From Anaerolineae bacterium (GTDB lineage Bacteria; Chloroflexota; Anaerolineae; B4-G1; SLSP01): a stretch of DNA of 64,000 bases. Positions within the stretch are counted from its first letter, which is position 1. Each line of letters starts with the position of its first letter. This document shows positions 24,331 through 35,887 of the stretch, piece after piece. The DNA lies in assembly GCA_049975205.1 (NCBI GenBank), contig JBNGDL010000007.1, positions 36,952 through 100,951 on the forward strand, given 5' to 3'. The notes under the pieces were generated by a model. It saw nothing but the letters and a program-made list of their open reading frames with translations. It was not told the origin of the DNA and made no database searches. Both the position numbers and the translations under genes were made by a program.

Positions 24331-26208
24331 ATGCTGCAACCTAATACGCAACTTCAAAACCGGTATCTCATCCGCCGTCGCATTGGGGGAGGCGGGATGG
24401 GGACTGTGTACATCGCCGAAGACATGCGGCTACAGGGACGTCAGTGTGCCGTGAAGGAGATGTCACCTAGCGCCCTTGCGCCACAGGATCGAGAGTGGTC
24501 CATCGAGGCCTTCCGGCAGGAGGCTCAGATGCTCGCCCAGCTTCGCCATCCCGGCTTGACCGCCGTGACCGACTTCTTTGGGGAGGGTGGCAACTGGTAC
24601 CTCGTCATGGATTACGTCGAGGGCAAGACGCTGGCCACGAAGCTCTCGGAGGCACCAGAGGGGCGTTTCCCGGTCCAGGAGGCTCTGCGCATCGTTCGAC
24701 AGCTCTGTGACGTCCTCGAGTATCTTCACAACCAGCCATCACAGGTCATATTCCGCGATCTGAAGCCTGGGAATGTCATGGTCACCGCTGAGGGCCAGGT
24801 GAAGCTGATCGACTTCGGCATCGCGCGCTTCTTTAAGCCGGGCAAACAAGCCGACACCGCGCTACTCGGAACGCCGGGATATGCTGCGCCGGAGCAATAT
24901 GGTGGTCTGGGTCAGAGTGGGCCACAGACGGATATCTACAGCCTCGGCGTGCTCCTGTGTCACATGGTGACAGGCTTTGATCCCGTCAGTGCCATGAGTC
25001 CGTTCCCTATCCCTGACCCGACCTCGTTGATGCCGGGTATACCCCCGCGCATTGCCGCCACTATCGTTCGAGCGACCCAGTTGCGCCCGGAGCTCCGGTA
25101 TCGTAGTATCGCCGAGATGCGCGACGACCTCTTCCCACCCTCGTTCGTTCCCTATAAACCGCCTACGGAACGCCAGAGGACGCAGGTCATGCAGCCTTCC
25201 GCGCCGAGTGAGGCCGGTTCTGATCGGAAGCGGTTGCGGATGGCGCTGCTAGCGGGAGGGGCAGGTATCGCGTTGCTCGGCATCTGTGTTGGCCTTGGGG
25301 TGTTCGTCGTCTGGCCTTATCTCAGGCCCGACGCGACGGTCACGCCGACCGTGACGCCGACCCAAGCCGCTGCCACAGCCACATTCGAGGCCACGGCCAC
25401 GGTGGGTGCCACCGCCTCAGAGGAGTCGGTAACGCCAACAGAAACGCCGGCTGAGGTCGACACGGATACACCGCCGCCTCCCGTGGTAAAGGTTGATCAG
25501 GATAGCCTTGGGCTCTCGGTTCAGGGGAGGGCGCTGGCCGTCACCACGATCGGCTACGAGGACGGCGCCGACATTGTCGTGGTCGGGAGCATTCAGGGGG
25601 ATCAAGCTGGCACGCGAGACTTGGTCCAGGCACTGATCGACCACTACCGCTCGAATGAGGGCGACATACCGATGGGTGTAATGTACCACTTCGTGCCTTC
25701 CATCAACCCTGATGGCCTTACCTTGAACTCCCGCTACAACGCGCGCGACGTAGACCTCAACCGCAATTGGGGCTCTAGTGATTGGCTGCGCGACGCCGCC
25801 GTGCCGGGATACCCTGAGGGGAAGCCCGACGCGGGAGGCGCGGCACCCTTCTCGGAGCCCGAGACCCAGGCGCTGAGGGACTATCTGCTCTCTCTAAGGT
25901 CGTCTTCCGATAGGCTGCGCGTGATGATCCTACACTCCTCAGTGCGTCGTGACAAAGGTGAGGTCTATCCGGGCGGAGCCACGGCGCTGGACGCAGCACA
26001 GTCCTACGCCAACGTGACCGGCTATGACGTCGAGTATGCCTGGGCGGAGTATGTGACCTCCGGCGAGGCTGTGACCTGGTGTGAGGAGCAGTCTATCGTG
26101 TCCATTGATGTCGTCATTCCCGGATCGCAGACGCCGAGCACGAAGGTCATTGGAGATCGGACGCTGCTGCAGATCACGCTTGATGCCGTCAGGACCCTCG
26201 GTCAGTAA
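24331..26208 (+). CDS. Ser/Thr protein kinase - TM - extracellular M14 carboxypeptidase-like domain (zinc ligands substituted)
   Basis: 625 aa. Kinase motifs GGGGMGTVYIAED, CAVKEM, FRDLKPGNVMV, IDFGIARFF, GTPGYAAPEQ. One TM (LLAGGAGIALLGICVGLGVFVVW), then a T/P-rich linker. M14 blocks are VVVGSIQGDQAGT (in place of HxxE), SINPDGL, DVDLNRNWG and FSEPETQAL. Confidence 0.8.
   Translation: MLQPNTQLQNRYLIRRRIGGGGMGTVYIAEDMRLQGRQCAVKEMSPSALAPQDREWSIEAFRQEAQMLAQLRHPGLTAVTDFFGEGGNWYLVMDYVEGKTLATKLSEAPEGRFPVQEALRIVRQLCDVLEYLHNQPSQVIFRDLKPGNVMVTAEGQVKLIDFGIARFFKPGKQADTALLGTPGYAAPEQYGGLGQSGPQTDIYSLGVLLCHMVTGFDPVSAMSPFPIPDPTSLMPGIPPRIAATIVRATQLRPELRYRSIAEMRDDLFPPSFVPYKPPTERQRTQVMQPSAPSEAGSDRKRLRMALLAGGAGIALLGICVGLGVFVVWPYLRPDATVTPTVTPTQAAATATFEATATVGATASEESVTPTETPAEVDTDTPPPPVVKVDQDSLGLSVQGRALAVTTIGYEDGADIVVVGSIQGDQAGTRDLVQALIDHYRSNEGDIPMGVMYHFVPSINPDGLTLNSRYNARDVDLNRNWGSSDWLRDAAVPGYPEGKPDAGGAAPFSEPETQALRDYLLSLRSSSDRLRVMILHSSVRRDKGEVYPGGATALDAAQSYANVTGYDVEYAWAEYVTSGEAVTWCEEQSIVSIDVVIPGSQTPSTKVIGDRTLLQITLDAVRTLGQ
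25330..25482 (+). repeat. Low-complexity Thr/Pro/Ala-rich extracellular linker-coding tract (kinase)
   Basis: Encodes DATVTPTVTPTQAAATATFEATATVGATASEESVTPTETPAEVDTDTPPPP, between the TM helix and the M14-like domain. Confidence 0.6.
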
Positions 26209-27717: not shown

Positions 27718-30528
27718 ATGATTCGCTGTGAGCAGTGCGGCGCACTGAATCGCTCCGAGGCGCATTACTGCACGAAGTGCGGATCAGCGCTGGGGGCTGT
27801 GGCACCGGCTGATCCGCCCTCACTGTGTCCTCACTGCGGGGTCCCGCTGCGCCCAGAATCGCGTTTCTGCCCTGCCTGCGGTCGAACCGTCGCAGGCGTG
27901 ACGGTGGCCCAGGATGGGAGTATCCACGAGCAGAAGATCGTTGTTCGTTGGCCTGGCGGCGAGTCCGAGGAGCACGCTCTCGACAAGTCGGTGGTACACA
28001 TCGGGCGGGCACCGGACAACGACATCGTCCTCAACTTCCCCACGGTCTCGGGACACCATCTCGCACTTGACGTCACGCCAAGTGACGTGAGGGTCACGGA
28101 CCTCAACAGCACGAACGGGACGATGCTGAAAGGACGCTTGATCACACCCCGTTCTCCGCATCCTTGGAGAGAGGGCGAGACCCTGCGTGTGGGCGATGTC
28201 TGGGGTAACTCCATCAGCATTGTGCTGAAGGGCGCGGCGGCCCCGGCTCTCCATACCTATCCGCTGGGTATGCACCGCCTCGCGCAGCACGCCCGCATCC
28301 TGATTGGGCGCGATCCGGCGAGCCAGATCACGCTTGATCATCCCACGGTCTCGCGCCGCCACGCCGAGATCGTGCGACAGGAGGGCGGGCACGCCATCCG
28401 CGATCTGGGCAGCGTCAATGGCACCTTTGTGAACGGGCAGCGGGTCCTAGATGTCGTCCGGCTGCAGGAGGGCGACGTCATCCAGTTGGGACCGTACAAG
28501 ATGGTCTACGACGGGGACGCTGACCGGCTCTCGACCTCGGTGAGCCAGGGCCACCGATTGGATGCGATCGGGCTCGGCGTAGAGGTCGGTGGTGGTCGCA
28601 TGATCCTGCAGGACGTCTCGCTCTCCGTACAGGGAGGCGAGTTCGCGGCGCTGGTCGGCGGCAGCGGTGCGGGCAAGAGCACGCTCCTCAAGGCGATGAA
28701 CGGCTTCCGACCCGCGACCCACGGTCGGATGCTGATCGATGGGGAGCTGCTTTATCCAAATCTGGCGGCCTATCGGACCTTGATGGGCTATGTGCCACAG
28801 GATGACATCATCCACAAGACGCTGCCGGTGCGGAGCGCGCTGTGGTACTCGGCGCGGCTACGTCTGCCTGATGCGACGTCGGCCGAGATCGAGGAGCGGA
28901 TCGACCGTGTCCTCGAGTTGGTGGAGCTGACAGCGCACCAGCACAAGCCGGTTCGGGTGCTGAGCGGCGGGCAACGCAAGCGCGTCAGCATCGCGGTGGA
29001 GCTCCTGGCAGATCCCGATCTCCTCTTCCTGGACGAGCCGACCTCCGGATTGGATCCCGGGCTCGAGAAGAAGATGATGTACGATCTCAACCGGCTGGCC
29101 GATCAAGGACGGACGGTGGTGCTGGTCACGCACGCCACCGCGAACATCGAGCAATGCGATCACGTCGGCTTCTTGGAGCGAGGGAACCTCGCCTACTACG
29201 GCCCTCCCAATGAGGCTATCGCCTTCTTCAAGGCAAGAGACTTTGCTGATATCTACCTGAAGCTGTCAGAACCGGTCGACGGTTTCAGAGGAGCTCTTCC
29301 CTCGGAACTGAGGCCCTATTGGGACGCGATTCAGGCGCGACTACCCGAGGAGGCAAGAGGTCAATCGCCTGGGGTCTGTACTGCAGGGCTTCTCTGGGCG
29401 CAACACTACCGCGCAAGCGACCTTCACCAACGTTACGTCGTGAACAGGCAGGCGCGCTTGGACGCAGCTCGGCCTGGGATGGAAGCGGCGCCTGCGCGCC
29501 GCAAGCGGACTCGAGACTCGGTTCTGCGTCAGCTTGTTGTGCTTGTCCGGCGCCAGTTCGATCTGATCCGTCACGACCTGCGCACGCTGTTCATCCTGCT
29601 TTTGATGATGCCGCTCATTGCCGTTTTGTTTATGCTGGTAAGTGACAAGACGGCGTTCGTCGGGGGCGCGGCGACGGAGGCAAGTCTCAAACAGGAGCTT
29701 CTGCAGGCCCTCAATGTGACTCGGGAGGATGATCTGTCCTCCGTGGTGCTCGACGGGGAGGATCTGGAGCGATCTGCCGACTACATGCCCTACGCCGATG
29801 CGAAGACGCTGGTCACCATGCTCGGGCTTGCCTTGACGCAGGCGGGCACCTTCGGGGCCGCCTATGAGATAGTAAAAGAACGCCCGATCTTCCGTCGCGA
29901 ACGGTCCGTCAACCTCCGGGTGGGGGCGTACGTATTGTCCAAGGCTTTGGTGCTCGGCGTCTTTGCGGTCATCCAGGTAGCCAGCGTGCTCGGTGTGCTG
30001 GCGCTGAAGCTGGATCTGGGCATCGATCCTATTCTGGATATCTTTGCCTTCGGCGCCGCGGAGCTCTTCGTGACACTGCTTATCGCGGTTGTCGCCAGCA
30101 TTATGTTCGGCTTGTTCATCTCGGCCGTTGTGCCTAGCCAGGACGTGGTGCTCTACATCATCCTGATCCAGCTCTTTACCCAGATTATCCTCTCGGGCAC
30201 ACTCTTCCCACTGGGGGACAATCCGGCGTCCAAGCTCGTGCCGTCTTACTGGACGATGGATGCGATGGGTGCTACCGTGGACCTGCGGAAGTTGAACGAC
30301 GAGGGCCGGGTCTGCAAGATATGGGAACAGAAGGATGTTCCCACGGCGGAGGGCACGCGGATGACGCAACGGGGGATCGTGTGCGAGACGGCGGCGATCA
30401 AGAACCTAGACCTGCCCTGGAAGCACGACGCGGAGCATCTCTTGACAGCGTGGGGCGCCCTCGGTGCACAGGCCCTGGTTTGGATGGCTGCTACCATGGT
30501 GGTGCAATCGAGAGTCAAAGGCGACTAG
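27718..30528 (+). CDS. ZnR-ZnR-FHA-FHA-ABC ATPase-ABC2 permease fusion (Rv1747-like FHA-regulated ABC exporter)
   Basis: 936 aa. Zn ribbons CEQCGALNRSEAHYCTKCG and CPHCGVPLRPESRFCPACG. FHA1 is VVHIGRAPDNDIVLNFPTVSGHHLAL...NSTNGT. FHA2 is ILIGRDPASQITLDHPTVSRRHAEI...GSVNGT. Walker A GGSGAGKST, signature LSGGQRKR, Walker B LLFLDEPTSGLD. Multi-TM ABC-2-type C-terminal half. Confidence 0.85.
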   Translation: MIRCEQCGALNRSEAHYCTKCGSALGAVAPADPPSLCPHCGVPLRPESRFCPACGRTVAGVTVAQDGSIHEQKIVVRWPGGESEEHALDKSVVHIGRAPDNDIVLNFPTVSGHHLALDVTPSDVRVTDLNSTNGTMLKGRLITPRSPHPWREGETLRVGDVWGNSISIVLKGAAAPALHTYPLGMHRLAQHARILIGRDPASQITLDHPTVSRRHAEIVRQEGGHAIRDLGSVNGTFVNGQRVLDVVRLQEGDVIQLGPYKMVYDGDADRLSTSVSQGHRLDAIGLGVEVGGGRMILQDVSLSVQGGEFAALVGGSGAGKSTLLKAMNGFRPATHGRMLIDGELLYPNLAAYRTLMGYVPQDDIIHKTLPVRSALWYSARLRLPDATSAEIEERIDRVLELVELTAHQHKPVRVLSGGQRKRVSIAVELLADPDLLFLDEPTSGLDPGLEKKMMYDLNRLADQGRTVVLVTHATANIEQCDHVGFLERGNLAYYGPPNEAIAFFKARDFADIYLKLSEPVDGFRGALPSELRPYWDAIQARLPEEARGQSPGVCTAGLLWAQHYRASDLHQRYVVNRQARLDAARPGMEAAPARRKRTRDSVLRQLVVLVRRQFDLIRHDLRTLFILLLMMPLIAVLFMLVSDKTAFVGGAATEASLKQELLQALNVTREDDLSSVVLDGEDLERSADYMPYADAKTLVTMLGLALTQAGTFGAAYEIVKERPIFRRERSVNLRVGAYVLSKALVLGVFAVIQVASVLGVLALKLDLGIDPILDIFAFGAAELFVTLLIAVVASIMFGLFISAVVPSQDVVLYIILIQLFTQIILSGTLFPLGDNPASKLVPSYWTMDAMGATVDLRKLNDEGRVCKIWEQKDVPTAEGTRMTQRGIVCETAAIKNLDLPWKHDAEHLLTAWGALGAQALVWMAATMVVQSRVKGD

Positions 30529-30553
30529 GGACAGACGCAACGGGAGAAATCGG

Positions 30554-31189
30554 ATGATGCGACGTCGATGGGCGTGGAGTGTCGCACTGATCAGTGTGCT
30601 GTTGTCCACGGGGTGCGAGGCCGAACCTGTGACCCCCGCGACGCCCCGTCCCACGCTAACGGCAACGCCAACGGCGACAGAAAGGGCAACGGTCACCCCG
30701 ACACCTTCGCCGACAGCGGTGCCTACAGTGACGCCTGCGCCCCGGGCGACCTCGACGGCAAAGCCGACATCCACTGCCACGGCGACGTCAACGCCCCGAC
30801 CGAGGGCGCCCTCGCCGGAGTCCTTGGCCACGCAGTATCCTCAGCTTGCCCCAATCTTGAACAATACAGAGGTGAGCACGGTCTACAAGGAGCTCGCTGT
30901 GGCCTGGGAGGCGCAAGGACAGCAAGGCGTGCTCGCCGTGGCGCGGGACCGGGGCCTCTTGACGCCTGAGGGGGACATTCGTGCGACGCTTGTACTGGAC
31001 ACGGAGGATTCAACAGCTACGGTTGCGCGGTTGCAGTCATTGGGGATAGAGGTGCTGGGGACCCAGGGCGAGCGGGTCCAGATCGCCATACCCCAGGGCC
31101 TCCTGATGGCGGGTGCGAATGACCCCGGTAGCGCCCTGAATCAGCTGAGCGGCCTGGAGCACGTCGTAGGTGTCGAACCGCCGGGCTGA
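30554..31189 (+). CDS. Lipoprotein with Thr/Pro-rich linker and a domain paralogous to the pro-like N-domain of the downstream S8 protease
   Basis: ATG at 30554 (MMRRRWAWSVALISVLLSTGC, lipobox-like STGC); the ORF extends to 30464 but that would overlap the ABC gene. The C-terminal 120 aa align with residues of about 60-185 of the 31615-33969 product (YPQLA, TVYKE, RGLLTP.G, TLVLDT, G.EV, QL..L.HV). Confidence 0.65.
   Translation: MMRRRWAWSVALISVLLSTGCEAEPVTPATPRPTLTATPTATERATVTPTPSPTAVPTVTPAPRATSTAKPTSTATATSTPRPRAPSPESLATQYPQLAPILNNTEVSTVYKELAVAWEAQGQQGVLAVARDRGLLTPEGDIRATLVLDTEDSTATVARLQSLGIEVLGTQGERVQIAIPQGLLMAGANDPGSALNQLSGLEHVVGVEPPG
30629..30815 (+). repeat. Low-complexity Thr/Pro/Ala-rich linker-coding tract (lipoprotein)
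   Basis: Encodes TPATPRPTLTATPTATERATVTPTPSPTAVPTVTPAPRATSTAKPTSTATATSTPRPRAPSP. The ACG/CCG/GCG-rich nucleotide repeats also generate a spurious G/V/A-rich antisense ORF. Confidence 0.6.
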
Positions 31190-31209
31190 GCTGTGCTGAG
31201 GAGGAGGCG

Positions 31210-31305
31210 ATGACGCTGGCACCGGGAACGCTCCTGCAGCAACGCTACCGCATCATGTCGTTGTTGGGGGTGATCCCGAGTTCTCTTGTCCCGATATCGC
31301 TCTGA
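31210..31305 (+). pseudogene. 31-codon stub of a Ser/Thr kinase N-terminus (truncated before the glycine-rich loop)
   Basis: Strong RBS GAGGAGG at 31201-31207, then ATG. MTLAPGTLLQQRYRIMSLLG matches the start of the intact kinase (MLQPNTQLQNRYLIRRRIG). The frame then diverges (VIPSSLVPISL) and stops at 31303-31305. No kinase core follows in any frame. Confidence 0.5.
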
Positions 31306-31614
31306 GCCAGTCCCCCCCGACGCCGGTCAGCGGATTCGGGAAGATATGGTGCACAGAATCGAATTCCGTCAGGGCCTGGGGGACGCAACCGAGGTCGAAC
31401 ACGGCTTTGGGGCGACTCTCCAGATCTTTGAGCAAGGGGCCGTGTTTCGTACGGACACCGGCACGACCTACGTTCTTCGCGACAACGGTACCCGGATAAG
31501 TCGGCAATGTCAGGGCTCGGTCTGGACCAGGTTGCAGCGGTATTGGGCTTGGTGGGAAGTGGTTGTTCTTTTCATCTGAGTATTGAGGGTTGTGCATAGC
31601 CAGAGGCTGAAGAT

Positions 31615-33969
31615 ATGCGTGGACAACGACGACGGCTGATTAGGACATTGTTGGTCAGTGGCGGGATTCTATTGGTTCTTGGCATCCTTGTAGGGGTCGC
31701 GCTGCTCACGAATGCGTTTTCGTGGTCTTCCGAGCGGACGCGCCGGGAGCTTCTGGCCGATGGCCCTGGAATCGAGCTGACACCGCCGATAGCGATCGAC
31801 GACCTCGCGGAGGCTTATCCTCAACTGGCTTCCGTGCTGAGTGACCCGGAACTGGCGACGGTGTACAAGGAGTTCGTGGTGGCGTATCAGGAGGGCGGGG
31901 TCGAGGCTGCTTCCGAGCTGGCGAAGAGCCGGGGCTTACTCACCCCCGATGGGCAGCATCTGCGCGTGACGCTTGTCCTCGACACTGACGCGCCACAGCC
32001 GCTCGTTGATCAGTTGGAAGGTGTTGGTGTGGAGGTGGTCAGTGCATTTCGTGATCGTGTCAATATCGCCGTGCCGGTCGCCCTGATCGAGCAGGCGATG
32101 CAATCGGAGGATGTCGATAGCGTCTTCCAGCAACTCACCGAGCTTCAGCACGTGATCGCAGTGCGTTTGCCAGGTCAACGGCAGTCCGACCAGCAGACGG
32201 AGCAGGGCGAGGGGGTCCGCGCGGTTGGCGCGGAAGTTTGGCACCAGGCAGGTTTCACCGGTGCTGGGCTGCGGGTCGGCATACTCGATTTGGGTTTTGC
32301 AGGGTACCGACGCCTCCTGGGGCGTGAGCTTCCTGACAATGTCGAGGTGGAGACTTTCGGATGGATTGACGACAAGGAGGTCCACGGGACTGCCTGTGCC
32401 GAGATTGTGCACGAGCTCGCGCCCGATGCGACCCTATATCTCGCCTGGTATGATGGCAGTGATGCCGCAATGGGGGAGGCTGTCGCATGGCTGCGAGGTC
32501 ATGAAGTCGACATCATCAGCCATTCAGCCGGGAGCGTGCTCAGCCCGCGAGATGGCACGGGTTGGGACGCAGAGTTGGTTGATGAAACTGCCGCGACGGG
32601 TGTGCTTTGGGTAAACTCTGCGGGCAATGAAGCAGATGTCCATCACCGGGCGACCTTCATCGATCAGGACGGTGATGGCTATCATGATTTTGAACTCGAC
32701 ACGTCGCTCCTTCCAATCTACAACGAGGGGGATCTGCGCGTCTTTCTTGTCTGGCACGAAGATTGGGAACGGCCCACCGAGGATCTTGAGCTGTTTGTTT
32801 TCGATGCCGACGGCAACGTGCTGGCCTCCTCTGAAGATCTGCAGGATGGGGGCTTGGGACAGCAACCCGCCGAATGGGTGGTTATGCAGTCCTCGGCGTC
32901 GGTGGTCTATGCTGCCGTCTACGCCTATGATGTCGATCGCGCGATGGGCTTTGATCTTTTTGCGATCGGTCCCGGGGTCGAGATCAAGGACCCGGTCCCG
33001 GCCTATAGCGTAAACTCCCCTGGTGACGCCGTTGGGGCTTTGACCGTCGGGGCAGTGGACTGGGAGGATGACCGCCTCGCCCGCTACAGCTCTCAGGGGC
33101 CGACTACTGACGAGCGCCTGAAGCCCGAGATCTCGGGTCCGACGAGGATTTCGGGCATTACCTATGGGGCCCACGGCTTTGATGGAACGTCGGCGTCGGC
33201 GCCGCACGTGGCCGGTGTGGCTGCACTGGTGTGGCAAGCTTACCCGAGCTACACGCGACAGGAGCTGACCGATCTGCTTCTGACGTCGGCCAAGGATCTG
33301 GGACCGGCCGGGCCTGACACCGGTTACGGGTTTGGACGCCTGCAGCTGCCCCCGCCGCCCAATGCTGCGGCGGTCATCGCCAGCCCCGAAGCGCCCGCCG
33401 ACGAAGCCACTGAGACGCCGACCACAGACGTCACGCCAACGCCGGTCGCCTTTGCATTACCTGCTCCTGAGAATGACACGGATGACCGGCGGCAGAGGCC
33501 TCTCGTCTTAGTGGGGCTTCTCGTGGGAGGCCTGAGCATTGGGGGCACGGGGCTCCTTGCCATCGGCGGCTACCTTCTTCTGAGCGAACTAAGGACCCGG
33601 TCGACGCCATCATCAGAGCCGCCGAGGCCTGCTCCGCCTTTGGCAGTGGCGCCGGCGCGGCCGATGCGGCCTTCAGAGAGGCCCGCCGAGGGGCCCTCGC
33701 TGCCATCCACAGAGCGATGGGAGACAGACCAGGGCGACTTGAGGACGCCGGATGCTCATTCTGCCAAGCGGCCGACATCCAAGTCAGAATCTGAGACACA
33801 CTGTCCTTCCTGCGGGGCTCCGTTGCGATCGGGGGCTCGGTTCTGCCCCGGGTGTGGCACGCGTCTGGCGATCGCTTCGAATCCGGCTTTCTGCCGTCAC
33901 TGTGGTGCCGCGTTGCGAGAGGACAGCCGGTTCTGCCCGAAGTGCGGCCTGCCGGTCGATCGGCGCTGA
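31615..33969 (+). CDS. Membrane-anchored subtilisin-like (S8) serine protease with N-terminal pro-like domain, second TM and cytoplasmic double zinc-ribbon tail
   Basis: 784 aa. N-terminal TM (LLVSGGILLVLGILVGVALL). Catalytic triad contexts VGILDLGF (Asp), HGTACAEIV (His), GTSASAPHVAG (Ser), with oxyanion NSAGNE. TM2 is LVLVGLLVGGLSIGGTGLLAIGGYLLL. Tail motifs CPSCGAPLRSGARFCPGCG and CRHCGAALREDSRFCPKCG. Confidence 0.85.
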   Translation: MRGQRRRLIRTLLVSGGILLVLGILVGVALLTNAFSWSSERTRRELLADGPGIELTPPIAIDDLAEAYPQLASVLSDPELATVYKEFVVAYQEGGVEAASELAKSRGLLTPDGQHLRVTLVLDTDAPQPLVDQLEGVGVEVVSAFRDRVNIAVPVALIEQAMQSEDVDSVFQQLTELQHVIAVRLPGQRQSDQQTEQGEGVRAVGAEVWHQAGFTGAGLRVGILDLGFAGYRRLLGRELPDNVEVETFGWIDDKEVHGTACAEIVHELAPDATLYLAWYDGSDAAMGEAVAWLRGHEVDIISHSAGSVLSPRDGTGWDAELVDETAATGVLWVNSAGNEADVHHRATFIDQDGDGYHDFELDTSLLPIYNEGDLRVFLVWHEDWERPTEDLELFVFDADGNVLASSEDLQDGGLGQQPAEWVVMQSSASVVYAAVYAYDVDRAMGFDLFAIGPGVEIKDPVPAYSVNSPGDAVGALTVGAVDWEDDRLARYSSQGPTTDERLKPEISGPTRISGITYGAHGFDGTSASAPHVAGVAALVWQAYPSYTRQELTDLLLTSAKDLGPAGPDTGYGFGRLQLPPPPNAAAVIASPEAPADEATETPTTDVTPTPVAFALPAPENDTDDRRQRPLVLVGLLVGGLSIGGTGLLAIGGYLLLSELRTRSTPSSEPPRPAPPLAVAPARPMRPSERPAEGPSLPSTERWETDQGDLRTPDAHSAKRPTSKSESETHCPSCGAPLRSGARFCPGCGTRLAIASNPAFCRHCGAALREDSRFCPKCGLPVDRR

Positions 33970-34011
33970 TGTGATCCTCAGGGAGTCTTCGGGACGGTAA
34001 GCCTGAAGGAT

Positions 34012-34040
34012 TTGTGCTTTGCTGAGATCGATACTATCGT
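34012..34040 (+). promoter_or_regulatory. Candidate internal promoter upstream of the second pseudokinase-PP2C gene
   Basis: TTGTGC (34012-34017), 17 bp, TATCGT (34035-34040), in a locally GC-poorer 170-bp gap. Confidence 0.25.
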
Positions 34041-34138
34041 AGGTGGGTAACATGGTCTGCAAGGGGGATCCTTGGAACAGGTAACGGGCAACGGGTTCTT
34101 CGTTTCGCTTTCTCAGCGCAACCTTACATATCCCTTTT

Positions 34139-35887
34139 TTGGTGCTCTTGGGGCTCTTGTTTGTCTTGACCACCGTCGTCTTGGCAAGGCGACTTCGCAG
34201 ACGACGTGTCTCTTCGAAGACGACGCCGGAGGCAACCTCTGCAGCCGCGACACGCCAGGGTGGGGGGACCAAGCAGCTAGCGGGGACGCCTGAAGCGTCG
34301 CATCCCGATCTAAGCGGCGGCTTTTCAGCACTGGCTGAAGGTACTGTGCTTAACAACCGCTACGTGATACGTGAGGTCCGTGGATCAAGCGGCAGCCACG
34401 CGGTCTACCTGGCTGAGGATCTCTACCCGGTCAAGATGTGTCCGGCATGCCGTGGCGTGGCATCAGACGCGGATGAGATTCGGTGCACATATTGTGGGGC
34501 CGATCTGTCCGAGATCTCCCCAGCTCAGCTCAGGTATCTCGTGCAGGAGCGGGACGATCCTGCGGCGTTCAGCTCTGAAGGCCAGTTACTCCAGCTTGAC
34601 CTGAGGCATCCGGGCCTGTTGCTGCCGGTTGCGGTCTTCGTGGAAGCTCCTCACGGTCCCAAGCGGGCTTATCGTGTTATGCCCGAGTTCTCCCCGCCGC
34701 TTGTGAAGACCGTGCCCGGTCCACGTGACTTGGCCCAGACGCTCTCGTGGGGTGTCTCGTTGGCGAAGGCTCTCGCTTATCTGCATCAGCACGATGTTGC
34801 CCTTGGTTCTGTGGATATCGACCACGTCTCGGTTGATGGCGACAGAGCATGGTGGTCGGGGCTGACCCGCGTCACGATCTTGTCCGCTGAGGAGCGTGCC
34901 TCTATCCGTGAGGCGCACGCCGTCGATGTGCAGAAGCTGGCGACCTTGTTGGTACAGCTGGGGACAGGAAGGGCTAACGCGGCTCTGCCCGAGAGCTGGC
35001 CTGATGCTCTGAACCAGTTGATCACCAAGGCACACCGTGAGCCTGCGAAGGTGAGCGCTGCGGAGTTTGCTGTTATGCTGGAGCACCTGTTGGAACAAGT
35101 GCGGGAGCCTAAGCGCGTGACGCTGGTGGTCGGGCAGTGCACGGATGTGGGTTCCATTCGCTCTGTCAATGAGGATACTCTTCTCTCGGTCGACCTCGGG
35201 GCGATCCATCGCCTGCGAGATCAGGCGGCGGGGCTTTTTCTCGTCGCCGATGGTATGGGTGGGCACGACGCAGGGGATGTGGCCAGCCAGTTGACGGCTC
35301 GGACAATTGGGGAGCTGACAACAGAGGAAGGGACCCGCCCCATTTCCTCCCGTCAGCTGTTCTCCGACCCGGCAGGGTGGCTGTTGACTGCGGTCCGGCA
35401 GGCCAACCAGGCGGTATATGAGGAGCGGATGGCTGCGAAATCTGACATGGGCACGACGCTCGTCGCGGCGCTCGTGATGGGTGCGCGGGCGACAATTGCT
35501 AACGTGGGAGACAGCCGCTGTTATCTGCTCAGCAACCGTGGCATCACCCAGGTCACGGTGGACCACTCGCTGGTGGAGCGGCTGGTGGCGACTGGTCAGA
35601 TCACGCGTGAGGAGGCGGCTGTGCATCCTCAGCGTCACGTCATCTACCGCGTGATCGGCGATAGGCCGGAGGTGGAGATCGATCTCTTCGAGCAACCGAT
35701 GCAGGTCGACGAAGCGTTGTTGCTCTGCTCCGACGGGTTGAGCGGCATGGTGTCTGACGAGACGATCTGGCGGATCTGGATGGCTGCAGCCTCTCCCCAA
35801 GATGCTTGCATCCGCTTGGTCGCGGCTGCGAATAGGGCCGGCGGCGAGGATAACATCACCGCCGTGATCGTTCAAGTGCGGACCTGA
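34139..35887 (+). CDS. Zinc-ribbon pseudokinase fused to PP2C phosphatase (paralog of 22645-24243), possible N-terminal membrane anchor
   Basis: 582 aa from a TTG at 34139; alternative starts are GTG 34142 and GTG 34346. Kinase-like LNNRYVIREV..AVYLAED, insert MCPACRG...RCTYCG, alphaC-like EGQLLQLDLRHPGL. The catalytic loop is replaced by ALGSVDIDHV and there is no DFG. The PP2C is intact: SIRSVNEDTLL, ADGMGGHDAGDVAS, VGDSRCYLL, CSDGLSGMV, GGEDNITAVIV. Confidence 0.75.
   Translation: MVLLGLLFVLTTVVLARRLRRRRVSSKTTPEATSAAATRQGGGTKQLAGTPEASHPDLSGGFSALAEGTVLNNRYVIREVRGSSGSHAVYLAEDLYPVKMCPACRGVASDADEIRCTYCGADLSEISPAQLRYLVQERDDPAAFSSEGQLLQLDLRHPGLLLPVAVFVEAPHGPKRAYRVMPEFSPPLVKTVPGPRDLAQTLSWGVSLAKALAYLHQHDVALGSVDIDHVSVDGDRAWWSGLTRVTILSAEERASIREAHAVDVQKLATLLVQLGTGRANAALPESWPDALNQLITKAHREPAKVSAAEFAVMLEHLLEQVREPKRVTLVVGQCTDVGSIRSVNEDTLLSVDLGAIHRLRDQAAGLFLVADGMGGHDAGDVASQLTARTIGELTTEEGTRPISSRQLFSDPAGWLLTAVRQANQAVYEERMAAKSDMGTTLVAALVMGARATIANVGDSRCYLLSNRGITQVTVDHSLVERLVATGQITREEAAVHPQRHVIYRVIGDRPEVEIDLFEQPMQVDEALLLCSDGLSGMVSDETIWRIWMAAASPQDACIRLVAAANRAGGEDNITAVIVQVRT

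What the first reader, a model, noticed from the sequence alone, without database searches (positions are those of the whole stretch)
30554..33969. Free-standing lipoprotein copy of the S8 protease's pro-like domain (possible trans-acting chaperone or inhibitor)
The C-terminal 120 aa or so of the lipoprotein (30554-31189) align without large gaps to the region just after the N-terminal TM of the S8 protease. By eye this is roughly 40 percent identity, with shared blocks YPQLA, TVYKE, RGLLTP-G, TLVLDT, G-EV, IA-P, QL--L-HV and PG. In subtilases the segment preceding the catalytic domain is normally the I9-type propeptide, which acts as both folding chaperone and tight inhibitor. A separately encoded, membrane-tethered paralog next to the protease would be an unusual way to control an extracytoplasmic protease in trans.
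Basis: seen in the sequence. Interest (0 to 1): 0.65.

Follow-up and report, generated by a model that had tools for sequence, protein, structure and literature searches.

The report
Stand-alone lipoprotein copy of protease prodomain
A small membrane-tethered lipoprotein of an uncultured Anaerolineae bacterium is an old, conserved duplicate of the prodomain of a nearby membrane-bound subtilisin-like protease. It lacks the tail that normally plugs the active site, so it probably docks on that protease as a regulator, though this has not been tested.

Summary
Lipoprotein aa 89-211 align to aa 62-187 of the S8 protease at 42% identity (E 8e-27).

The shared 125-aa module matches no Pfam or NCBIfam family. 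It folds confidently as a helical hairpin plus a beta-alpha-beta-beta-alpha-beta core. Its best-probability fold matches are subtilase prodomains (CspB, PC1/3, Tk-subtilisin). The whole S8 ectodomain models best onto Csp-type zymogens.

So the "free-standing prodomain paralog" idea is supported at fold level, but not as a sequence member of Inhibitor_I9.

- **Adjacency is secondary.** The 425-bp gap holds a decayed Ser/Thr kinase gene. In relatives the lipoprotein follows the FHA-ABC transporter or precedes a kinase, and the S8 lies 0.1-14 kb away.
- **The lipoprotein is limited to one clade.** It is monophyletic (87/100) and absent from several otherwise syntenic loci that keep the S8.
- **It has no tail.** All 14 copies stop 3 residues after the last strand, so they lack the P6-P1 tail that blocks the active site in classical inhibitors.

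The most likely role is a trans-docking regulator or chaperone of the S8, not a tight inhibitor. This is a new variant of a known kind (stand-alone prodomain-like proteins). Function is untested.

The parts
30554..31189 (+). Lipoprotein gene (211 aa), the free-standing copy of the prodomain-like module
   Evidence: ORF. Homologs P0001-P0007 and others are 202-260 aa. Conserved in 14 loci.
30554..30616 (+). Signal peptide and lipobox (MMRRRWAWSVALISVLLSTG-C21)
   Evidence: Sequence. All 14 free-standing copies have a signal peptide ending in [GAS]-C.
30617..30811 (+). Thr/Pro/Ala-rich flexible tether (aa 22-86), variable between homologs
   Evidence: This region has low complexity and is not conserved, whereas the module is 57-78% identical among the homologs of alignment A1 (98% to P0001).
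30812..31186 (+). Prodomain-like module (aa 87-211): three N-terminal helices plus a beta-alpha-beta-beta-alpha-alpha-beta core. It ends 3 residues after the last strand (VGVEPPG-stop).
   Evidence: AF2 pLDDT 88.3, pTM 0.81. Foldseek matches to subtilase prodomains at probability 0.89-0.96. Conserved C-terminal stop position.
31210..31500 (+). Decayed Ser/Thr kinase gene. The first 20 codons (MTLAPGTLLQQRYRIMSLLG) are joined, in other frames, to about 75 codons of the kinase's C-terminal extracellular domain.
   Evidence: tblastx against the intact kinases that follow the lipoprotein or ABC gene in L001, L002, L013, L041 and L043.
31615..33969 (+). Membrane-anchored S8 (subtilisin-like) serine protease, 784 aa
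   Evidence: Pfam PF00082, E 4.8e-32. PDB subtilisin hits. D225, H257, N338 and S526 are invariant in 40 homologs.
31639..31710 (+). N-terminal hydrophobic segment of the S8 (signal anchor or signal peptide)
   Evidence: Sequence. Whether it is cleaved was not determined.
31792..32175 (+). The S8's own (cis) copy of the prodomain-like module (aa 60-187)
   Evidence: BLASTP. Profile match at aa 60-187. Same secondary structure in the S8 model.
32176..32208 (+). Linker between module and catalytic domain (aa 188-198, QRQSDQQTEQG), the inferred autoprocessing region
   Evidence: Low pLDDT at aa 191-197. Variable sequence of constant length across homologs. The length matches the distance from strand beta4 to the mature N-terminus in subtilisin BPN' (my own knowledge of that sequence). 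Cleavage itself is inferred, not shown.
32209..33354 (+). S8 catalytic domain with an inserted beta-sandwich (jellyroll-like) domain at about aa 339-451 (32629-32967)
   Evidence: Secondary structure of the model. Full-length Foldseek matches to CspA, CspC and CspB, which carry such an insert (PMC3567191).
33502..33582 (+). C-terminal transmembrane helix of the S8
   Evidence: Sequence. The partial match to the mycosin model TIGR03921 covers S8 aa 442-640 and so only the first residues of this helix (aa 630-656); it is below the curated cut-off.
33799..33948 (+). Cytoplasmic double zinc ribbon at the C-terminus of the S8
   Evidence: Pfam DZR, Zn_Ribbon_1 and Zn_ribbon_3. 15 of 40 homologs carry a DZR and 10 of 40 carry an FHA domain.
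27718..30528 (+). DZR-FHA-FHA-ABC(ATPase)-ABC2 membrane protein. It is the conserved upstream neighbour of the lipoprotein (context only).
   Evidence: Pfam. It lies directly upstream of the free copy in 10 of the 12 related loci where the upstream sequence is visible, and in the window itself.

Best explanation
The lipoprotein is an ancient duplicate of the prodomain of the cluster's membrane-anchored, Csp-like S8 protease. It was duplicated once, is under purifying selection, and is inherited alongside the S8.

It is exported, lipid-anchored to the outer face of the cytoplasmic membrane, and held on a tether of about 65 residues. The S8 catalytic domain is anchored in the same membrane by its C-terminal helix.

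The proposed action (inferred, not shown) is that the module docks in trans on the surface of the S8 catalytic domain that normally binds the cis prodomain. All copies stop three residues after the last beta-strand, so they lack the P6-P1 tail that fills the substrate cleft. I therefore expect it to act as a tethered docking regulator, chaperone or competitor of the cis prodomain, not as a classical tight, product-like inhibitor.

**Shown here:** paralogy, fold class, topology signals, conservation, co-occurrence, and absence of the tail. **Inferred:** binding to the S8 and the effect on its activity.
For: - 42% identity over 126 aa, E 8e-27.
- The module alone folds with pLDDT 88. Subtilase prodomains (CspB 4i0w_A, PC1/3 9fid, Tk-subtilisin 2z56_B with TMt 0.66 and rmsd 2.8 A, pro-SA-subtilisin 3vhq) are its highest-probability fold matches.
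- The S8 ectodomain model (pLDDT 89.6, pTM 0.87) matches single-chain CspC/CspA zymogens over about 575 of 581 columns. TMq is higher (0.54-0.58) than against the prodomain-less CspB chain (0.48).
- The linker from module to catalytic domain has the same length as in subtilisin BPN'.
- Free copies form one clade (87/100 NJ bootstraps), and its branching roughly parallels that of the partner S8 modules.
- Identity of the free module between the window and L005 (69%) is similar to that of the S8 module (72%), the S8 catalytic domain (71%) and the ABC protein (67%). It is therefore under comparable constraint.
- 14 of 14 copies have a lipobox.
- In 10 of 14 genomes both proteins are found. The other 4 free copies are on contigs of 4-12.6 kb.
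- The window's copy stays intact although the kinase gene next to it has decayed.
- Precedents from papers: a CspB prodomain supplied in trans restores folding, and without its last 3-4 residues it leaves the active site accessible (PMC3567191). Stand-alone propeptide-like proteins regulate subtilases (PMC6993865). ORF2 is an external chaperone of the Aeromonas protease ASP (PMC5638518).
Against: - No interaction was tested.
- Foldseek E-values for the module alone are weak (0.02-0.4). Other ferredoxin-like domains (ACT domains, ABCA1 R-domain) are mixed in among the hits.
- No sequence-level I9 signal was found.
- The acidic helix-capping residues of classical propeptides are not conserved (PMC6993865).
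- The gene's most constant neighbours are the FHA-ABC transporter and a kinase, not the S8.
- Several syntenic loci keep the S8 without the lipoprotein.
- Positions conserved only in the S8 copies cluster in the long N-terminal helix. Positions conserved only in the free copies cluster in two loops. This suggests the two forms have diverged in function.
Confidence: 0.45

Rival explanations
1. The lipoprotein is a classical trans-acting tight inhibitor of the S8. It would bind like an I9 propeptide and block the active site until a signal removes it.
For: - The fold and paralogy evidence is the same as for the best explanation.
- Stand-alone propeptide-like inhibitors exist: POIA1, PBI2, AtSPI-1, TgMIC5 and SUB1-ProM (PMC6993865).
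- For PfSUB1 the propeptide tail enhances inhibition but is not essential for it (PMC6993865).
Against: - All 14 locus copies and about 10 further clusters end 0-2 residues after V-x-P-P-x. That is only 3 residues after strand beta4, against about 7 in BPN' and the P6-P1 segment in CspB.
- Truncating the last 3-4 residues of the CspB prodomain opens the active site (PMC3567191).
- The C-terminal regions of PBI2 and POIA1 are implicated in their inhibitory action (titles of refs 3-4 cited in PMC6993865), and the C-terminal region of ORF2 binds around the ASP catalytic site (PMC5638518).
- The capping acidic residues are not conserved.
Confidence: 0.15
2. The lipoprotein is an extracytoplasmic accessory of the Rv1747-like FHA-ABC exporter, or of the sensor kinase encoded after it. 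On this view the shared module is a general docking or ligand-binding domain, and its presence in the S8 serves localisation, not protease control.
For: - The FHA-ABC gene lies directly upstream in the window (25-nt gap) and in L001, L002, L003, L005-L010, L013 and L028.
- A kinase gene lies directly downstream in 10 of 13 related loci, and as a remnant in the window.
- The ferredoxin-like fold is generic. ACT-like and ABC regulatory domains appear among the fold hits.
- The free copies have their own conserved loops.
Against: - L012 and L014 have the lipoprotein without an upstream ABC gene.
- Close relatives (L041, L043; ABC protein 57-63% identical) have ABC followed directly by the kinase, with no lipoprotein.
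- In the window the neighbouring kinase is a pseudogene while the lipoprotein is intact.
- The only other proteins that carry the module are S8 proteases, always in the prodomain position.
Confidence: 0.25
3. The lipoprotein is a substrate or decoy for the S8, or a drifting duplicate with no current function.
For: It has been lost from several related loci. There is no known family and no experimental data.
Against: - It is conserved in at least 14 genomes and about 20 sequence clusters.
- The module is 57-78% identical among the homologs of alignment A1, while the tether varies freely.
- Many columns are conserved at 80% or more in both the free and the S8 copies, for example Y10, P11, L17, Y26, K27, G38 and P141 (alignment columns).
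- The stop-codon position is conserved.
Confidence: 0.08

Closest known systems
Stand-alone subtilisin propeptide-like proteins of MEROPS family I9 and relatives (POIA1, yeast PBI2, Arabidopsis SPI-1, Toxoplasma MIC5, Plasmodium SUB1-ProM; PMC6993865)
   Same: They are separately encoded small proteins with the prodomain fold that act on a subtilase in trans. SUB1-ProM is also encoded in a syntenic locus next to subtilase genes.
   Different: - Those proteins are eukaryotic and soluble, and show no significant sequence similarity to their targets' propeptides. Their C-terminal tail contributes to inhibition.
- This one is bacterial (Anaerolineae) and lipid-anchored on a long tether.
- It is a clear sequence paralog (42%) of the target's own prodomain, has no tail, and gives no sequence match to PF05922.
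ORF2, the external chaperone of the Aeromonas sobria serine protease ASP (PMC5638518; J Biol Chem 2015, 290:11130)
   Same: It is a bacterial, separately encoded extracytoplasmic partner that folds and temporarily inhibits a subtilase. ORF2 (2mk4) also appears among the fold matches, weakly (rank 18, probability 0.38).
   Different: - ASP has no propeptide of its own, and ORF2 replaces it. Here the S8 keeps an intact cis module.
- ORF2's C-terminal residues sit in the catalytic site. Here the C-terminus is too short to reach it.
- ORF2 is not known to me to be a lipoprotein.
Csp germination subtilases of Clostridia (CspB, CspA, CspC; PMC3567191, PMC12880746)
   Same: They are the best structural match for the whole S8 ectodomain: prodomain, subtilase domain and an inserted beta-sandwich domain. 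The CspB prodomain stays bound after cleavage, works in trans as a chaperone, and without its tail leaves the active site open.
   Different: - Csp proteins are soluble spore proteins, with only 15-18% identity to this S8.
- They have no membrane anchors, no cytoplasmic zinc ribbon and no free-standing prodomain gene.
- The NCBIfam CspBA model is hit far below its cut-off.
Rv1747 / PknF module of Mycobacterium tuberculosis (PMC3138270)
   Same: The upstream neighbour has the same FHA-FHA-ABC-ABC2 architecture. In relatives it is followed by a Ser/Thr kinase gene.
   Different: This applies to the context only. I know of no lipoprotein or S8 that is part of the mycobacterial pair. The window protein adds an N-terminal double zinc ribbon.

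Membership tests
Inhibitor_I9 (Pfam PF05922; MEROPS I9 subtilase propeptide/inhibitor) | Sequence match to the family profile | tested here: not met
   No PF05922 hit for the lipoprotein or the S8 at E <= 0.1. None for the 12 module sequences at E <= 10. None among the 25 most frequent families in 40 S8 homologs at E <= 10.
Inhibitor_I9 (Pfam PF05922; MEROPS I9 subtilase propeptide/inhibitor) | Open-sandwich beta-alpha-beta-beta-alpha-beta fold | tested here: met
   DSSP of the AF2 model: E56-62, H68-76, E80-85, E88-93, H95-99/H107-113, E118-122. Foldseek probability 0.89-0.96 to the CspB, PC1/3 and Tk-subtilisin prodomains, but with E-values of only 0.05-0.2.
Inhibitor_I9 (Pfam PF05922; MEROPS I9 subtilase propeptide/inhibitor) | Position directly N-terminal to an S8 catalytic domain (for the cis copy) | tested here: met
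   The module lies at aa 60-187 and the catalytic domain starts at aa 198. The same arrangement is seen in more than 100 homologous S8 clusters.
Inhibitor_I9 (Pfam PF05922; MEROPS I9 subtilase propeptide/inhibitor) | C-terminal tail that lies in the S4-S1 subsites | tested here: not met
   The free copies end 3 residues after strand beta4 in 14 of 14 loci. The cis copy has an 11-residue linker that could serve as the tail.
Inhibitor_I9 (Pfam PF05922; MEROPS I9 subtilase propeptide/inhibitor) | Docks on the two surface helices of the catalytic domain and inhibits or chaperones it | not testable with these tools
   No complex prediction and no model coordinates were available. Only indirect support exists, from the full-length match to Csp zymogens.
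Bacterial lipoprotein | Signal peptide ending in a lipobox with an invariant Cys | tested here: met
   LLSTG-C21 in the window. An equivalent motif is present in all 14 copies. Lipid modification itself was not tested.
Peptidase S8 (subtilase), active enzyme | Asp-His-Ser triad plus the oxyanion Asn | tested here: met
   PF00082, E 4.8e-32. D225, H257, N338 and S526 are invariant in 40 homologs.
Type VII secretion mycosin (TIGR03921) | Score above the curated cut-off | tested here: not met
   74 bits against a cut-off of 279. The match is partial and covers only the C-terminal half up to the start of the membrane anchor (S8 aa 442-640).
Csp germination protease family (NF040809) | Score above the curated cut-off | tested here: not met
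   29 bits against a cut-off of 1250. The resemblance is structural only.

The most novel reading that the evidence does not exclude
This would be a prodomain-exchange switch. After autoprocessing, the S8's own prodomain stays membrane-anchored and bound, with its tail plugging the active site. The tail-less lipoprotein paralog then displaces it and opens the active site. That would activate a transmembrane signalling protease whose cytoplasmic zinc-ribbon or FHA end is wired into the surrounding kinase / PP2C / FHA phospho-signalling cluster.
Probability: 0.12. Interest if true: 0.75.

Novelty: new variant of a known kind. Interest (0 to 1): 0.45.

Why it matters
Subtilase control by separately encoded prodomain-like proteins has been studied in fungi, plants and apicomplexan parasites. 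In bacteria the one case I found is the ORF2 external chaperone, which serves a protease that has no propeptide.

Here a bacterial protease keeps its own prodomain and also has a lipid-anchored, tail-less paralog of it. That paralog has been conserved across a clade of Anaerolineae.

If the two proteins interact, this would be a natural experiment on what a prodomain core does without its gatekeeper tail. It would also add an extracytoplasmic control layer to a membrane protease embedded in a Ser/Thr-kinase / FHA / PP2C signalling cluster.

The 125-aa module is not in Pfam or NCBIfam, although it is found in about 190 protein clusters, so it could be defined as a new domain family.

Tried and rejected
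- **Sequence-level links to I9.** Pfam at lenient thresholds on the window proteins, 12 modules and 40 S8 homologs found nothing. A module-profile search of PDB sequences gave only chance hits with E >= 0.3. hhalign against the BPN' propeptide gave nothing.
- **NCBIfam** has no model for the lipoprotein.
- **Word-indexed homolog searches** gave only 7 and 6 hits and missed the cross-match. The exhaustive profile search was needed.
- **Source of the window.** Looking up the S8 protein found nothing on record.
- **Regulatory signals.** The promoter/terminator scan of 30300-34300 was no better than shuffled sequence.
- **Recent duplication** was rejected. Identity is 42% and the free copies form their own old clade.
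- **An operon pairing of lipoprotein and S8 as the ancestral state** was rejected. A kinase remnant lies between them, and synteny differs in relatives.
- **A second paralog pair.** The two upstream small proteins (26220 and 27099) are not detectably similar by BLASTP (E 0.26).
- **First bootstrap script** timed out. It was re-run with a faster distance routine.


Full report
**1. The observation**

The window carries two genes on the + strand: a 211-aa ORF at 30554-31189 and a 784-aa ORF at 31615-33969. BLASTP aligns lipoprotein aa 89-211 to S8 aa 62-187 with 53/126 identities (42%), three gap positions and E = 8e-27.

The small protein starts MMRRRWAWSVALISVLLSTG-C, which is a signal peptide plus lipobox. 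A 65-residue Thr/Pro-rich tether follows.

The large protein is a subtilase (PF00082, E 4.8e-32). Its layout is:
- an N-terminal hydrophobic segment (aa 8-31);
- the shared module (aa 60-187);
- a catalytic domain starting at aa 198, with D225, H257, N338 and S526 invariant in 40 homologs;
- a second membrane helix (aa 630-656);
- a cytoplasmic double zinc ribbon.

**2. What the shared module is**

No Pfam or NCBIfam model matches it. A profile search of PDB sequences gives only chance hits.

An AlphaFold2 model built from 12 homologs is confident (pLDDT 88.3, pTM 0.81). It shows three N-terminal helices followed by beta-alpha-beta-beta-alpha-alpha-beta.

In Foldseek against the PDB, no match reaches E < 0.02, as expected for a small ferredoxin-like unit. 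The matches with the highest probability are subtilase prodomains:
- CspB prodomain 4i0w_A (0.96);
- PC1/3 prodomain 9fid (0.96);
- Tk-subtilisin propeptide 2z56_B (0.89, TMt 0.66, rmsd 2.8 A);
- pro-SA-subtilisin 3vhq.

ACT-like domains, ABCA R-domains and the ASP chaperone ORF2 (2mk4) are mixed in among the hits.

A model of the S8 ectodomain (aa 40-620, 40 homologs) is also confident (pLDDT 89.6, pTM 0.87). Only aa 191-197 of the module-to-catalytic-domain linker score low. Its best PDB matches are the clostridial Csp germination subtilases, which align over about 575 of 581 columns. TMq is 0.54-0.58 for single chains that include the prodomain (CspA, CspC) and 0.48 for the CspB chain that lacks it. 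Pro-Tk-SP and unprocessed pro-subtilisin E follow.

The model has an inserted beta-sandwich domain like the Csp jellyroll (PMC3567191). The distance from the last strand of the module (VIAVR, aa 180-184) to the start of the catalytic domain (GEGV, aligned to PYGV of BPN') equals that in subtilisin BPN'. That last point rests on my own knowledge of the BPN' precursor sequence.

I conclude that the module is the S8's prodomain at the level of fold and position. It is not a detectable sequence member of Inhibitor_I9. The acidic helix-capping residues described for classical propeptides (PMC6993865) are not conserved: R-L-P in the S8 copies, E/Q-P-P in the free copies.

**3. Distribution and history**

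An exhaustive profile search of 1.84 billion representatives finds 191 clusters at E <= 1e-3.
- Most are S8 proteins of 700-950 aa with the module at about aa 55-190.
- About 20 clusters are lipoproteins of 200-260 aa in which the module ends the protein.

A genome scan returned 44 loci, all from Chloroflexota MAGs and mostly Anaerolineae. With loci from protein look-ups and the window, there are 14 free-standing copies and 43 S8-attached copies.

The free copies are monophyletic in a neighbour-joining tree (87/100 bootstraps). They sit beside the S8 sub-clade that contains their partners, and their branching roughly parallels that of the partners.

This points to one old duplication followed by co-inheritance. 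Constraint is similar to that on neighbouring proteins. Between the window and L005, identity is 69% for the free module, 72% for the S8 module, 71% for the S8 catalytic domain and 67% for the ABC protein.

All 14 free copies have a lipobox. All 14 stop 0-1 residues after V-x-P-P-x.

**4. Genomic context**

The window's cluster runs on one strand:

| Start | Gene product |
|---|---|
| 22594 | PP2C phosphatase |
| 24331 | Ser/Thr kinase with an M14-like domain |
| 26220 | double-zinc-ribbon protein |
| 27099 | 193-aa protein |
| 27718 | DZR-FHA-FHA-ABC exporter (architecture of M. tuberculosis Rv1747, PMC3138270) |
| 30554 | lipoprotein |
| 31615 | S8 protease |
| 34139 | pseudokinase-PP2C |
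| 35916 | vWA-FHA protein |
| 38940 | metallophosphoesterase |

The 425-bp gap between lipoprotein and S8 is not empty. It holds the first 20 codons of a Ser/Thr kinase (MTLAPGTLLQQRYRIMSLLG). These are joined, in other frames, to about 75 codons of that kinase's C-terminal extracellular domain. The match is to the intact kinases that occupy this position in L001, L002, L013, L041 and L043.

Across relatives:
- The lipoprotein follows the FHA-ABC gene directly in 10 of the 12 related loci where the upstream sequence is visible, as it does in the window. The exceptions are L012 and L014.
- It is followed by a kinase gene in 10 of 13 related loci.
- The S8 is immediately downstream only in L006 and L009. 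It lies after one gene in L008, about 4.9 kb away in L003, L005 and L028, and 13.8 kb away on the contig shared by L012 and L017. In two MAGs it is on another contig (L007/L035, L013/L029).

Both proteins are found in 10 of 14 genomes. In the other four the free copy is on a contig of 4-12.6 kb, so S8 status is unknown. Conversely, seven loci (L016, L018, L021, L024, L026, L041, L043) show ABC followed directly by the kinase, with the S8 present and no lipoprotein. The lipoprotein is a clade-limited addition, not an obligatory partner of this S8 family.

**5. Mechanism**

What is shown:
- The two proteins are paralogous in a prodomain-fold module.
- Both face the outside of the cytoplasmic membrane and are tethered there.
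- They are inherited together.
- The free copy is constrained but lacks any tail beyond the last strand.

What is inferred: the free module docks in trans on the catalytic domain's prodomain-binding surface.

The absence of a tail matters.
- In CspB, the P6-P1 residues of the prodomain fill the cleft. A prodomain supplied in trans restores folding. Removing its last 3-4 residues leaves the active site open to a probe (PMC3567191).
- The C-terminal regions of PBI2 and POIA1 are implicated in their inhibitory action (reference titles cited in PMC6993865), and the C-terminal region of ORF2 binds around the ASP catalytic site (PMC5638518).
- Only for PfSUB1 is the tail reported as dispensable (PMC6993865).

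I therefore favour a tethered docking regulator, chaperone or competitor of the cis prodomain (confidence 0.45) over a classical tight inhibitor (0.15).

The conserved positions differ between the two forms. S8-only positions cluster in the long N-terminal helix. Free-only positions cluster in the TPEGD and A-x-x-PG loops. So the two copies are not interchangeable mimics.

The main rival is that the lipoprotein serves the ABC exporter or the adjacent kinase (0.25). Gene order supports this. Three findings weaken it:
- loci exist that lack the ABC neighbour (L012, L014);
- close relatives lack the lipoprotein between ABC and kinase (L041, L043);
- the lipoprotein survives intact beside a dead kinase gene in the window.

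**6. Comparison with known systems, and novelty**

Stand-alone prodomain-like regulators of subtilases are a known kind: POIA1, PBI2, AtSPI-1, TgMIC5, SUB1-ProM and, in bacteria, ASP/ORF2. This case differs in several ways:
- it is a recognisable sequence paralog of the target's own retained prodomain;
- it is lipid-anchored on a long tether;
- it lacks the tail;
- it sits in a kinase / FHA / PP2C signalling cluster of uncultured Anaerolineae.

The module family itself is unannotated.

I rate it a new variant of a known kind, of moderate interest (0.45). It is a clean, conserved and testable arrangement, but there is no functional evidence and several relatives do without it.

Noticed in passing
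window 31210-31500 (+): A Ser/Thr kinase pseudogene. The first 20 codons are fused out of frame to about 75 codons of the C-terminal extracellular domain of the kinase that follows the lipoprotein or ABC gene in relatives. About 1.4 kb has been lost.
   Followed up: yes
window 33799-33948 and homologs in alignment A2: The S8 family is a two-sided membrane protein. After the C-terminal membrane helix, 15 of 40 homologs carry a cytoplasmic double zinc ribbon and 10 of 40 carry an FHA domain; 13 carry a PPC domain. This suggests the protease is wired into phospho-Thr signalling.
   Followed up: partly
window 27718-30528 (+): The ABC exporter has the FHA-FHA-NBD-ABC2 architecture of M. tuberculosis Rv1747 plus an N-terminal double zinc ribbon. 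Double zinc ribbons recur on at least three proteins of the cluster (26220, 27718, 31615), as if they were a shared assembly tag.
   Followed up: partly
window 24331-26208 (+): A Ser/Thr kinase whose extracytoplasmic part matches the zinc carboxypeptidase family M14 (E 1.4e-15). This is an unusual sensor domain for a bacterial kinase.
   Followed up: no
protein P0018 (7147 aa): A giant protein with 40 repeats. Each repeat matches only profile positions 73-111 of the module (the strand-strand-helix part). Its origin and meaning are unknown.
   Followed up: no
proteins P0081, P0084-P0087, P0089, P0095, P0105 (about 940-1030 aa): A subgroup of S8 homologs in which the N-terminal helical part of the module (profile positions 1-52) occurs twice in tandem before the beta-alpha-beta core.
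   Followed up: no
L037 7685-9772 and 9998-11599; L038 9977-11542 and 12384-14594: Some Anaerolineales genomes carry two tandem S8 paralogs, each with its own module, and no free-standing lipoprotein in the fetched stretch.
   Followed up: no
L004 1543-2555 and L003 10001-12330: S8 genes are interrupted in two relatives. In L004 the gene is truncated after the His motif. In L003, a 1.8-Mb contig, it is split 277 + 506 aa, probably by an assembly frameshift.
   Followed up: partly
proteins P0101, P0109, P0117, P0120, P0122, P0125, P0129 and others: In more distant S8 homologs the protease itself begins with a lipobox-like motif in place of a membrane helix. In those lineages the whole zymogen may be a lipoprotein.
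   Followed up: no
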